DNA of 64,000 nucleotides from Bdellovibrionota bacterium (GTDB lineage: Bacteria > Bdellovibrionota_C > UBA2361 > JAAYZI01): NCBI GenBank assembly GCA_050950765.1, contig JBMNIF010000003.1, forward strand, positions 644,980 to 708,979. The letters are read 5' to 3'. Numbering within the stretch: the first letter of the stretch is position 1; every line of letters starts with the position of its first letter. Of this stretch, positions 21,001-24,000 are shown one piece after another. Position numbers: made by a program.

Positions 21001-24000
21001 ATTCTAAAAACAATACTTGCCGCTAAACTCCCTTCCGCTTCTTTTTCCTTACATACAAAATTTAAAAACTATAACTATCGCCAAACCCTCTTCCACTTCT
21101 TCTTTTTCCTTACATACAAAATTCTAAAAACAATACTTGCCGCTAAACTCTCTACCGCTTCTTTTTCCTTACATACGAAATTTAAAAACTATAACTATCG
21201 CCAAACCCTCTTCCACTTCTTTTTTCCTTACATACAAAATTCTAAAAACAATACTTGCTACTAAACTCCCTACCGCTTCTTCTTTTTCCTTACATAAAAA
21301 ATAAAGAGGATGCTTTTTTAAAAAGAGATAACTTGCGCTTTTCCACCATTAAAGACGGTGTAGCCTTTAAAACCCACCGCCTTAAGTTGTTCAAAGATTA
21401 TCTCAAAAAAAGCTGCGATATCTGCAGCACGGTGTGCATCGGATCCTACTGTAATCAACTCTCCACCCAACTCTTTATACCGTTTAATAATATCAAAATT
21501 AGGATGCGGAGTGTTTAAGCCGTAAAGAAAACCAGAAGTATTAATTTCAATCCCTTTACCACGCTCAATAAGAGCCGTTAAAACTTGATCTATCAGAGTA
21601 GCATACTTTGCGTATGAATATCCCTCATTTTTATGCGGCGCATAACGCACAATGTAATCAAGGTGCCCGTAGACATTAAATCCGGAAAAGGCTTTAATAT
21701 TTTCAACGATAGATTGAAAATAACGCGTAATGACCTCTTCTTCACTTCTATCTCTCCAGAAAGATCTCTCATACGGATCCCGCATATCCAAAAGGTGTGA
21801 AGAGCCGATAATAAAATCAAAGTGATATGCGTTGATTAAATTGCTATACCGTTCTGCAAGGTGCGGCACTAACCCCAACTCAATTCCACGTAATATCTCG
21901 ATCTTTGCACCATAGATACCCCTTAACCTATCAACTTCTGCAAAATACGCTTCTAGATCAGTTTCAAATATTACACCCTCATCTAACGGATAATCGTAAT
22001 CAATATGCTCTGTAAAACAGATCTGTTCTAAGCGTAGTTCAATAGCACGCTTAACCATATTTTCCATCGGTTCCGTACTATCCGCAGAAAAGTTGGTGTG
22101 CAGATGATAATCAACCTTTATCGACATCTCGTTGTCTCTCCCCTTTACACATACCCACAAGGCATAAAAAAACGCGGACTATGCCGCGTTTCTCCTACTT
22201 TCAAAATTAAAGAGCTTTATAGCTGCTCGCTACTACGATCTAAAAGGCATCAGACCTACATTCTGCGCACGTTTAATCGCCTTAGCGATCTTCCTCTGAT
22301 TATAAGCTGTTAATCCTGTTAAACGACGCGATAGAATCCTGCCTCTTTCACTAACGAAACGTGAAAGCACTGCTACATCTCTGTAATCTATGGTTTTGCT
22401 CTGATCCATTAAAAACGGATCCACCTTGCGATGACGTTTAAAAAGCTGCATCCTCTGAATAGGCGGCAGTGATTCTCTCTGACGACGCTCACCACCACTA
22501 CCCGAAGAGGCTTTATTATCTTCCCAACTACTCGGCTTACCACGATCGAAGCAGACCTTCATCGGGCGACCGTTAATGACCTTACCATCTAACTCATCGA
22601 TAGCCTTCTGAGCAGCTTCCTCGTTTGTCATCTCAACAAAAGCAAACCCCTTGGAGCGCTGGCTCTCTCTATCAGTCGCAATAACAACATTTACACAAGA
22701 ACCAACCTTATCAAACATCTCTTTAAGAGTGTCATTGGTGACATCAAAATCTATATTACTAACAAATAATTTACTCTTCATCGTGTTACTTAATAATAAA
22801 CAAAAAATAGCGACAAAACGCCTACATAGAGCGTAATCATATATAAGAGTATTAAAATAAAGTCAAGACAGGGCAGCCATCAAAAGCGATGCTAAGAGGT
22901 TGATTTCTATTAAAACCCCCCTACTTTTTCAAAACACGATTTTGCAACATAGAACACGGCGAATAAAAAAAGTAATTTAAAGAGAAAAGTTTGTGTTTTT
23001 CAACACTTAATCACCAATTCGTGCAGATTCTATCTTGACCTTTCTTAGTTTAAACAGCTAAAAGCTGTCTTGTGCCGAAATTGTAGAGATTTCTTGCACC
23101 TATCGATTAACTTCCCGTCTTTACGTTTTTCAATAGAGAGAAGAAAAGTATGAGTAATTCTTCAGCAGTTAATAGGTTTTCATCTGATCGTGAAGAAGAT
23201 ATTGATGCATCATCGCCCGTTAAACCAGAACGCAACCTCCTTGCCGCTGTATTAGCAAGAGCAATTTGCGATGCTTTCGGGACGGCGCATTGTGAGCGTC
23301 ACGTCGTTCGCGGTGCCAGACAGTGGTTGTTCGGCAAGCTTACCCCAAAAGAGCCCTTTAGTTTCGCTTGGGTCGCCTTGCATTTAGATTTAGATCCGAT
23401 CTCATTGCAACAGAATTTACACGGCTACGAAGCAAATCCTGAAGAGATTCAAGATCGCTTATCCCTCTTACGATAACTGTTAGCGAAAGTCACGTATTAT
23501 CGTTAACTCTTTTAGGATTTAGAAGATCCCTTCTCTCTCCTGTAAAAAAGGAGAAGAAGGACTTTTTTCCTTTAGGCAAACCGTGCGGAAAAAGAAAGCT
23601 GGGATTTTTTTCCTTCGTGTAAGCCGTATAAGGTAAAAAACTTTTGTCCCTCCATGCAAACTATGCGGAGAAAAAGAAAGCTAGAGCTGTTTTCCTTAAT
23701 GCAAGCCGTATAAGGTAAAAAACTAACGCAACTTTTTACGTAACCTTTCAAGGTCTTCAGGTGTACCGATATCTATAAAACACGCCTCTCCTTGATGCGC
23801 CGTTATAATACTTTGTGAATCTTTTAACGCCTCTTCATAAACTGGAAAGATTGAAAAATTGCCCTCAAAGTTTTGCATATATCGAAAAATTTTACTTGAG
23901 ACACACTGCACACCCGTATAAGTTAACGGCTCTAACCCTGCTACAATAGGCGCACCTTCGCTCCACAGCCCTTTAAATTTATTATCACGATCTCTAAGAA

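What a model noticed while it worked through the whole genome (the two positions that open the first line are those of the whole stretch)
22233..22781. Ribosomal protein bS18 fused to an N-terminal RRM domain
The only bS18 gene (g01980, 182 aa) encodes an N-terminal RRM_1 domain (5-74), a basic Gly/Ser linker of about 55 residues and a C-terminal bS18 domain (129-178), and it sits away from rpsF-rplI (S6 g01430 and L9 g01431 are adjacent with no S18 between). I read it as a lineage-specific ribosomal protein that puts an extra single-strand RNA-binding module on the 30S platform near the mRNA exit / anti-Shine-Dalgarno region. New would be a bacterial ribosome with a eukaryote-type RRM as an integral part of a core r-protein, conserved over a whole order.
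Evidence so far: Pfam RRM_1 E 2.5e-23 and Ribosomal_S18 E 1.5e-24 on one ORF; no other S18 row. Of 91 genomes of the order, 89 match and about 80 have one uninterrupted frame covering query 1-181 at 49-69% identity. Protein database: 391 hits; the 120 best are all 174-235 aa with both PF00076 and PF01084. Paper search: 7 papers, none on such a fusion. SD use is ordinary (73% of genes, call 132).
(Added by a program. Inside this text positions count along the whole contig: contig position 644,980 is position 1 of the stretch shown here. "Call 12" and the like, gene names such as g00115 and contig names such as C1 are that model's own, and its searches are not shown. The text may have been shortened before it was handed on; [...] marks where a part breaks off. 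The agent that wrote the report below was given it as the finding of a first reader that could run no searches.)

Follow-up and report, generated by a model that had tools for sequence, protein, structure and literature searches.

The report
Ribosomal protein bS18 carrying an RRM
This bacterium's only gene for small-subunit ribosomal protein bS18 has an RNA-binding RRM domain joined to its front end by a flexible tether, a design shared by almost its whole uncultured phylum, which would hang an extra RNA-binding module beside the spot where the ribosome grips the start of an mRNA.

Summary
Window 22233-22781 (minus strand) is one 182-aa ORF: an RRM (residues 1-80), a low-complexity tether (81-105) and a full-length bS18 (106-182).

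It is the only S18 in the genome. The lineage's order, class and phylum hold 91, 124 and 124 species genomes. Of the 124, 116 have exactly one S18 hit, and 113 of these lie in a 170-268-aa frame. One species lost the RRM in place. No genome has a second, unfused S18.

The fusion is made as one chain. No stop separates the parts, 8 of 27 homologues have no internal Met, and no internal SD is conserved. NCBI's 72-aa call is a truncation.

Function is inferred. The S18 N-tail contacts the SD/anti-SD duplex (PMC4611024), so the tethered RRM most likely binds single-stranded mRNA leader or the 16S 3' tail there.

New here: an ultra-conserved 108-aa ORF of no known family lies next to the gene in about 94 of 115 genomes. 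This scan noted the same fusion three times before on other genomes. I found no paper on it.

Verdict: new variant of a known kind, interest about 0.6.

The parts
22233..22781 (-). Whole gene: RRM-tether-bS18, 182 aa plus stop; the only bS18 gene of the genome
22542..22781 (-). RRM domain, residues 1-80 (beta-alpha-beta-beta-alpha-beta). The RNP2 (LFVSNI) and RNP1 (KGFAFVEM) aromatic residues F6, F46 and F48 are nearly invariant in 27 homologues.
   Evidence: Pfam; alignment A1; AF2 pLDDT above 90; Foldseek about 1 A rmsd over 76-82 residues to solved RRMs
22467..22541 (-). Low-complexity Gly/Ser/Arg/Glu tether, residues 81-105. It is variable in sequence and in length. The stretch measured, from the end of the RRM to just before S18's basic run, is 20-62 residues and includes the conserved motif at its end.
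   Evidence: AF2 pLDDT below 50 for residues 84-99; segment identity 0.07-0.31 against 0.43-0.64 for the RRM, and the length list
22233..22466 (-). Full-length bS18 (residues 106-182 plus stop): conserved pre-tail motif [10 protein letters not shown], basic N-tail KRHRK, S18 core
   Evidence: TIGR00165 at 115-180; PDB 5myj_AR aligned to query 109-180; AF2
22166..22191 (-). Hairpin (CGCGG/CCGCG stem, 6-nt loop) followed by a U7 run, 41-67 nt after the stop. It is read by eye as an intrinsic terminator, which would make the gene monocistronic.
   Evidence: Sequence; fold -15.7 kcal/mol, z -3.66. The consensus scan did NOT list it.
22782..23149 (.). 368-nt divergent intergenic region between the fusion gene and the 108-aa neighbour. 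The promoter is not determined. The own start codon has no SD-like motif, while most relatives have GGAG or similar.
   Evidence: leader fold z 0.05; no Rfam family
23150..23476 (+). Ultra-conserved 108-aa ORF of no known family ('nb108'), the near-constant neighbour of the fusion gene

Best explanation
The gene encodes the cell's only bS18, made as one 20-kDa chain. A complete S18 anchors it in the 30S platform next to bS6. A canonical single-strand-RNA-binding RRM swings on a spacer that measures 20-62 residues across homologues, attached to S18's N-terminal tail. That tail lies against the Shine-Dalgarno/anti-Shine-Dalgarno duplex. The RRM is therefore held within reach of the mRNA exit and standby region. 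It most likely binds unstructured mRNA leader just 5' of the SD, acting as a built-in helper for mRNA capture beside bS1. Shown: the architecture, sole-copy status, phylum-wide conservation, an intact RNA-binding face, a flexible tether, and synthesis as one frame. Inferred: incorporation with the RRM attached, RNA binding, the RNA target, and any effect on initiation. My odds: a real single-chain ribosomal fusion 0.9; acts on RNA at the exit or anti-SD side 0.6; mRNA leader rather than rRNA as the target 0.4.
For: Both domains score far above the curated cut-offs on one ORF, and it is the only S18 in the genome. Across the 124 species genomes of the phylum-level lineage, 116 have exactly one PF01084 match. 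Of these, 113 lie in open frames of 170-268 aa, and 108 give a single alignment over query residues 1-3 to 175-182. The 8 genomes without a match are 55-90% complete. The RNP1 and RNP2 aromatic residues are nearly invariant. RRM identity is 0.64 within the order and 0.43 between orders, against 0.31 and 0.07 for the spacer. AF2 gives two confident domains, a disordered stretch at 84-99, and pTM 0.44, meaning no fixed mutual orientation. The RRM superposes at about 1 A on RNA-bound RRMs such as HuR RRM3. 8 of 27 homologues have no Met between the RRM and the S18 core, and no SD-like run is conserved before the Met where there is one. Most relatives have a GGAG-like motif before the RRM start codon. 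The S18 N-terminal domain and basic N-tail contact the SD/anti-SD duplex (PMC4611024, passages). A bS18/bS6 groove binds the 16S 3' tail in F. johnsoniae (PMC7797042, abstract and passages). bS1 (six S1 domains), bS21, bS6 and a canonical CCUCC 16S end are all present, so the RRM adds to them rather than replacing them.
Against: No protein, ribosome or RNA-binding data exist for any member. One species (G049) keeps the tether remnant and S18 but has lost the RRM in place, and has only a paralogue-level RRM (42%) elsewhere, so the RRM is dispensable at least there. I found no leader signal that an RRM could read. Upstream composition is ordinary: an SD peak and a mild U rise from -34 to -16. 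No 5-mer is enriched more than 2.1-fold at -40 to -15 (crude gene calls biased towards SD). RRMs can also bind proteins. The tether could be cleaved after assembly.
Confidence: 0.55

Rival explanations
1. The RRM binds ribosomal RNA rather than mRNA. It would hold the free 3' tail of 16S rRNA (the anti-SD) or a platform helix. That would protect the tail, gate SD pairing, or help platform assembly.
For: In F. johnsoniae the 16S 3' tail lies in a bS18/bS6 groove capped by bS21 (PMC7797042, passages). The tail is single-stranded RNA next to S18's N-tail (PMC4611024). Chloroplast cS22 uses RRMs to bind rRNA hairpin loops (PMC5737520, passages). No mRNA leader motif was found.
Against: SD use looks ordinary and the anti-SD is canonical, so permanent sequestration is unlikely. 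The 16S gene is of ordinary length, 1521 nt matched end to end to the model, with no sign of an rRNA loss to compensate. A long, variable and disordered tether suits a roaming binder better than a fixed structural one.
Confidence: 0.22
2. The RRM works off the ribosome or only in cis. One version is feedback control of its own mRNA by free fusion protein. Another is that it is clipped off after synthesis, the fusion serving only for co-expression.
For: Ribosomal proteins commonly autoregulate, which is established knowledge. The gene left the rpsF operon and is monocistronic, so it needs its own control.
Against: The 81-nt leader stretch folds no better than shuffles (z 0.05). The upstream regions of 9 order members share no conserved block near the fusion start. 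There is no Rfam match. No conserved cleavage-like motif stands out in the variable spacer. Co-expression alone would not keep a frame open in 113 genomes when a stop plus restart would do the same.
Confidence: 0.12
3. The fusion is an annotation illusion. S18 would be translated from the internal Met111, as in the 72-aa NCBI gene call, and the upstream RRM part would be a separate or dead reading.
For: The public annotation of this very contig holds a 72-aa product (cluster 1). Another lineage member is annotated at 143 aa instead of 192 (cluster 4). In the window AGAGG lies directly before Met111.
Against: There is no stop between the parts in 113 genomes. The RRM is under clear constraint. 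8 of 27 homologues lack any internal Met, and the relatives' codon before the Met is CGC, CGT or CGG, not AGG. The AGAGG has zero spacing to the ATG. JGI and other callers give 174-235 aa.
Confidence: 0.03

Closest known systems
Canonical bacterial bS18 (rpsR; PF01084, TIGR00165; e.g. PDB 5myj chain AR)
   Same: The C-terminal 77 residues are a complete S18 with the basic N-tail and the core. It is the sole copy, and the bS6 partner is present.
   Different: It carries an 80-residue RRM plus a tether on the N-terminus. It is encoded away from rpsF-rplI, as a single gene next to an unknown conserved ORF.
Chloroplast ribosomal protein cS22 / PSRP2 (PDB 5x8p_v, 5mmj_v)
   Same: An RRM-bearing component of a bacterial-type 30S subunit. 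Its RRM matches this one at E 5e-16 by sequence and at 1.0 A rmsd by fold.
   Different: cS22 is a free-standing protein with two RRMs. It sits at the subunit foot near h6 and h10, where it seems to make up for rRNA deletions (PMC5737520, abstract and passages). Here a single RRM is covalently tied to a core protein at the platform.
Free-standing bacterial RRM proteins (cyanobacterial Rbp family; Bacteroides and Porphyromonas RRM-1 proteins; NCBIfam NF058537)
   Same: A single small RRM with the same RNP motifs. PDB 7jly, an 'RNA Binding Protein PG1', is among the fold matches. Synechocystis Rbp3 co-precipitates with ribosomes (PMC12232666, passages).
   Different: Those are separate, diffusible proteins. 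NF058537 scores 85.5, below its cut-off of 100. The lineage's own free RRM paralogues are only 27-47% identical to the fused one.
bS1
   Same: A ribosome-resident binder of single-stranded mRNA leaders on the platform and exit side. This is the working analogy.
   Different: It is unrelated in fold (OB-type S1 domains) and binds through uS2. It is still present here with six S1 domains.
ASD-occluding pocket of Bacteroidia (bS21/bS18/bS6)
   Same: It shows that lineage-specific changes around bS18 can retune SD recognition (PMC7797042).
   Different: It works through point residues of ordinary-length proteins, not an added domain. Those lineages lack SDs, whereas this genome uses them.
S6-S18 single-chain fusions noted earlier in this scan (e1-2738267, e1-2895798)
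   Same: bS18 as part of a lineage-wide fused chain.
   Different: Those join two ribosomal partners that already bind each other. This one adds a non-ribosomal RNA-binding module. I did not re-test those notes here.

Membership tests
bS18 (PF01084 / TIGR00165) | Profile score above the curated cut-off | tested here: met
   PF01084 at 83.7 bits against 21; TIGR00165 at 73.9 against 38.75
bS18 (PF01084 / TIGR00165) | Full-length S18, including the basic N-terminal tail | tested here: met
   Query 109-180 aligns to residues 4-75 of the 81-aa 5myj_AR; AF2 gives S18 helices at pLDDT above 90
bS18 (PF01084 / TIGR00165) | It is the cell's S18, with no other copy | tested here: met
   One match in the own genome; exactly one match in each of 116 of 124 lineage genomes and none in the other 8
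bS18 (PF01084 / TIGR00165) | Assembles into the 30S platform with bS6 | not testable with these tools
RRM_1 (PF00076) | Profile score above the cut-off, and a beta-alpha-beta-beta-alpha-beta fold | tested here: met
   79.8 bits against 20.7; AF2 elements E3-8 H16-26 E29-36 E43-51 H54-64 E75-78; TM 0.90-0.95 on the target to solved RRMs
RRM_1 (PF00076) | RNP1 and RNP2 motifs with exposed aromatic residues | tested here: met
   F6, F46 and F48 are 90% or more conserved and G45 is invariant in 27 sequences. The names and positions of the motifs are from my own knowledge.
RRM_1 (PF00076) | Binds single-stranded RNA | not testable with these tools
NCBIfam NF058537 Rbp_regulator | Score at or above the curated cut-off of 100 bits | tested here: not met
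   85.5 bits. I do not file it as a member.
Chloroplast cS22 / PSRP2 | Free-standing protein with two RRMs at the subunit foot | tested here: not met
   There is one RRM, fused to bS18. The location is not testable. It is a resemblance only.

The most novel reading that the evidence does not exclude
The lineage runs a modified initiation apparatus. The ribosome-resident RRM on bS18 captures or unfolds mRNA leaders at the standby site, or gates the anti-SD tail. The ultra-conserved 108-aa neighbour is its dedicated partner or regulator. That neighbour is co-directional and directly upstream in the other orders sampled, and divergent in this order. Together they would form a phylum-specific two-gene translation module with no counterpart in model bacteria.
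Probability: 0.15. Interest if true: 0.8.

Novelty: new variant of a known kind. Interest (0 to 1): 0.6.

Why it matters
Core ribosomal proteins rarely gain whole extra domains in bacteria. Here a generic RNA-binding module is welded to the one protein whose tail touches the SD/anti-SD helix, and it has been kept across an entire uncultured phylum. If it acts on mRNA, it is a natural experiment in hard-wiring an mRNA-recruitment factor into the 30S subunit. It can be tested by expressing the protein, or by replacing rpsR in a model organism. One species has naturally lost the RRM and offers a built-in control.

There is also a practical point. Automated annotation truncates the gene, to 72 aa on this very contig, or labels it plain 'S18'. 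The architecture is therefore hidden in public records.

Tried and rejected
(1) Wider spread, by protein search. The search of protein representatives with the fusion profile was swamped by multi-RRM proteins of 336-2606 aa. Only 3 of the best 150 rows (183-203 aa, one stretch over the whole profile) look like fusions, so it gave no count outside the lineage.

None of the 80 best loci covers both halves, and none is from this lineage. This is not a census.

(3) Outgroup. 0 of 201 genomes sampled from the phylum of a Bacteriovoracaceae-labelled MAG match at E <= 1e-22. Five single genomes have S18 and RRM in separate frames. A very divergent or independent fusion would split into two weaker alignments and be missed at that threshold.

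(4) Leader RNA. No Rfam family matched. The fold has z 0.05. There is no conserved block before the fusion start in 9 order members. The one conserved block lies next to the neighbour's start.

(5) Expression. Three runs held only small shares. One 176-nt contig of an RNA library covers 22541-22716, inside the RRM part. Nothing bridges to S18. This is no evidence either way.

(6) Complex prediction (fusion with the 108-aa neighbour) was not available.

(7) The 108-aa neighbour. No Pfam, NCBIfam or PDB sequence match, and a PHROG match at only E 0.3. The AF2 model is all-helical but has pLDDT 51, so I ran no fold search on it. The nearest Atlas clusters are unnamed. A profile search found 1417 proteins; none of the 120 listed has a Pfam family, and the names given are only 'hypothetical protein'.

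(8) Leader motif for the RRM. Nothing stands out.

(9) RRM-rpsU linkage, as in a cyanobacterial cluster that I saw only as a reference-list title in PMC12232666. tblastn with the own bS21 found no bS21 beside the genes in the 80 loci. This is a low-sensitivity test.

(10) Literature. Seven searches. No listed title or abstract start describes an RRM-S18 fusion. Subscription journals are not covered.
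Full report
OBSERVATION.

Window 22233..22781 on the minus strand is a single 182-aa ORF with an ATG start.
- Pfam finds RRM_1 at residues 5-74 (E 1.4e-22) and Ribosomal_S18 at 129-178 (E 9.5e-24). Both are far above the gathering scores.
- NCBIfam's S18 equivalog TIGR00165 matches 115-180 at 73.9 bits (cut-off 38.75). The RRM half hits NF058537 'Rbp_regulator' at 85.5 bits, below its cut-off of 100.
- A six-frame search of the whole assembly (2.64 Mb, 5 contigs, 94% complete) finds this as the only S18.
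- rpsF and rplI lie elsewhere on the contig, 85 nt apart, behind L25 and Pth, with no S18 between them.

ANATOMY.

AlphaFold2 on a 27-sequence alignment gives these parts:
- a confident beta-alpha-beta-beta-alpha-beta domain at residues 1-80;
- a disordered stretch at 84-99 (pLDDT below 50);
- intermediate confidence to about residue 120;
- a confident S18 fold to residue 180.

The pTM is 0.44, so the two domains have no fixed mutual orientation.

The RRM superposes at about 1 A rmsd over 76-82 residues on solved RRMs. These include RNA-bound HuR RRM3, CIRBP and chloroplast cS22.

By sequence, residues 109-180 align to residues 4-75 of an 81-aa solved S18 (5myj_AR). The S18 part is therefore full-length (about 106-182). 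It includes its own basic N-tail and a conserved pre-tail motif: [10 protein letters not shown] in this order, and APMGYFRAQPLDLG in most sequences of the other orders. The true spacer is about 25 residues here.

Across the 27 homologues, the stretch between the RRM and S18's basic run is 20-62 residues of Gly/Ser/Arg/Glu/Gln-rich sequence.

Mean pairwise identity, within this order and between orders:

| segment | within order | between orders |
|---|---|---|
| RRM | 0.64 | 0.43 |
| spacer | 0.31 | 0.07 |
| S18 core | 0.76 | 0.59 |

The aromatic residues of the two RNP motifs (F6, F46, F48) are nearly invariant. The names of these motifs are from my own knowledge. The RNA-binding face is under selection and the spacer behaves as a tether.

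DISTRIBUTION.

The lineage's order holds 91 species genomes. Its class and its phylum both hold the same 124.

With the Pfam S18 model, 116 of the 124 have exactly one match and none has two.
- 113 of the 116 lie in open frames of 170-268 aa.
- With the protein as query, 108 give one alignment over query residues 1-3 to 175-182: 82 in this order and 26 in other orders. Five more (G031, G058, G065, G066, G072) give two alignments in one open frame with a longer spacer.

The three exceptions among the 116:
- G046: the S18 is cut by a contig end.
- G087: the two halves are in different frames, with a TAA, in an 800-contig assembly.
- G049: see below.

The 8 genomes without any S18 are 55-90% complete. 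The gene is missing from those assemblies, not unfused.

In G049 the 108-aa neighbour is followed directly by a spacer remnant and S18, with no RRM. Its family mates G050 and G051 have the fused RRM at 79-100% identity to the query, while G049 has only a 42% paralogue elsewhere. This is an in-place loss, unless it is an assembly error.

Depositors label members variously as Oligoflexia, Bdellovibrionales, Bdellovibrionota, SAR324 cluster, Deltaproteobacteria, Dadabacteria or Proteobacteria.

In 201 genomes sampled from the phylum of a Bacteriovoracaceae-labelled MAG, nothing matches at E <= 1e-22. Five single outgroup genomes keep S18 and RRM genes apart. A divergent, independent fusion would escape that threshold. 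I could not run a census of all bacteria (searches failed for that purpose).

ONE CHAIN OR TWO?

The public annotation of this contig holds a 72-aa product, which equals a start at Met111. Another member is annotated at 143 aa instead of 192. Against an internal start:
- No stop separates the halves in 113 genomes.
- 8 of 27 homologues have no Met at all between the RRM and the S18 core.
- Where a Met is present, the preceding codons carry no conserved SD. Relatives use CGC, CGT or CGG where the window has AGG, and the window's AGAGG abuts the ATG with zero spacing.
- Most relatives have a GGAG-like run before the RRM start codon, though the window itself does not.

I conclude the protein is made as one chain and the short calls are truncations.

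CONTEXT.

The gene is monocistronic. A hairpin with a U7 run lies 41-67 nt after the stop (-15.7 kcal/mol, z -3.66). I read it by eye, and the consensus scan did not list it. A PHP-domain gene follows.

Upstream, a 368-nt region separates the gene from a divergent 108-aa ORF (23150-23476). bS1 with six S1 domains, bS21 and bS6 are present. The 16S gene is of normal length and ends in the canonical ...GGAUCACCUCCUUU. Upstream regions show an ordinary SD peak (my gene calls are crude and biased towards SD). The RRM therefore adds to the usual initiation parts and replaces none of them.

HOW IT MOST LIKELY WORKS.

What the papers say:
- A review of crystal structures states that the SD/anti-SD duplex sits in a cleft formed by rRNA, S11 and S18. 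[quoted passage not shown]
- In F. johnsoniae the free 16S 3' tail lies in a bS18/bS6 groove (PMC7797042, abstract and passages).

Inference: an RRM tied by a flexible spacer to that very tail is confined to the exit and standby region. From there it can reach the mRNA just 5' of the SD, the 16S 3' end, bS1, uS2, bS21 and bS6. Its best structural matches include RRMs bound to U-rich single strands.

I therefore favour a built-in binder of unstructured leader RNA that raises the local concentration of mRNA at the standby site. The main rival is binding of the 16S 3' tail or platform rRNA. Lesser rivals are off-ribosome autoregulation, cleavage, and the internal-start reading.

Evidence against my favoured version:
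- No leader motif was found.
- One species has naturally lost the RRM.
- No experimental data of any kind exist.

The 108-aa ORF has no Pfam, NCBIfam or PDB sequence match, and only a PHROG match at E 0.3. Yet it is more conserved than the ribosomal protein:
- 62-84% identity to the window's copy in 22 of the 27 loci examined.
- In the 23-sequence alignment, 49 columns are invariant and residues 25-62 are nearly all invariant.

A profile finds an orthologue at E <= 1e-30 in 116 of 124 genomes, plus one to several weaker paralogues per genome.

Collating by hand, the orthologue lies on the same contig within 1.5 kb of the S18 gene in about 94 of the 115 genomes where both could be placed.
- In all 8 loci of this order, and in the window, it is divergent to the S18 gene.
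- In 13 loci of other orders it is co-directional and directly upstream, and in one more it is 4 kb upstream.

AF2 gives a low-confidence all-helical model (pLDDT 51). A profile search finds 1417 proteins; none of the 120 listed has a Pfam family, and the names given are only 'hypothetical protein'. Whether this protein is a partner, a regulator or merely a neighbour is open.

COMPARISON AND NOVELTY.

The protein is a member of bS18 and carries a member of RRM_1. It is not a member of NF058537 (below the cut-off) or of cS22.

Precedents for the idea:
- chloroplast cS22: two RRMs, free-standing, at the subunit foot (PMC5737520);
- free bacterial RRM proteins that co-purify with ribosomes (PMC12232666, passages);
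- bS1;
- the Bacteroidia anti-SD pocket.

None of these places an RRM on a core protein at the platform.

Seven literature searches listed no paper on such a fusion. Only open-access text is covered.

This scan has noted the same fusion on three other genomes (e1-4899572, e1-1398415, e1-7535386). My counts (116 of 124, 113 fused, one loss) match the last of these independently. None of the three mentions the neighbour.

VERDICT.

This is a real, lineage-wide, unpublished variant of a core ribosomal protein with a plausible but untested role at the start of translation. Novelty: new variant of a known kind. Interest 0.6.

Noticed in passing
window 23150-23476 (+): A 108-aa ORF of no known family, more conserved than bS18 itself: 49 invariant columns in 23 sequences. 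It lies next to the RRM-S18 gene in about 94 of 115 lineage genomes. It is divergent in this order and co-directional upstream in the other orders sampled. Each genome also has weaker paralogues, for example G000 C2:415271-415606 and C2:443689-444024.
   Followed up: partly
window 22233-22781 (-), public annotation: The public gene call on this very contig is a 72-aa product starting at Met111. A relative is called at 143 aa instead of 192. Automated annotation therefore hides the RRM in part of the records.
   Followed up: yes
L027 = G049:C117:3400-4250: A natural RRM-less form. The neighbour ORF is followed directly by a spacer remnant and S18 in a 110-aa frame. No fusion-type RRM is found elsewhere in that 92%-complete genome. 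An assembly error is not excluded.
   Followed up: partly
G087:C754:4886-5394: The RRM and S18 halves lie in different frames with a TAA between them. This is either a frameshifted or pseudogenised copy, or an error in an 800-contig assembly.
   Followed up: no
window 22761-22781: The window's own start codon has no SD-like motif within 20 nt upstream, while most relatives show GGAG, AGGAG or AGGGAG there.
   Followed up: no
window 24464-25129 (-): A 221-aa RNase H (PF00075 at 81-212) with an 80-residue N-terminal extension that holds Cys/His pairs (CSVCS...CREH) and might bind zinc.
   Followed up: no
alignment A3 columns about 222-265; window about 23060-23110: A conserved block (consensus TTTAACACACCTAAAGCTTTTA, read on the fusion gene's strand) lies about 40-90 nt upstream of the 108-aa ORF in order members. 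It is probably that gene's promoter or leader. In the window's own sequence it is only partly kept.
   Followed up: no
G040 (single 2.3-Mb contig, 82% complete): No S18 was found by either the protein or the Pfam query, and only a paralogue-level match (E 4e-11) to the 108-aa family. This is odd for a one-contig assembly.
   Followed up: no
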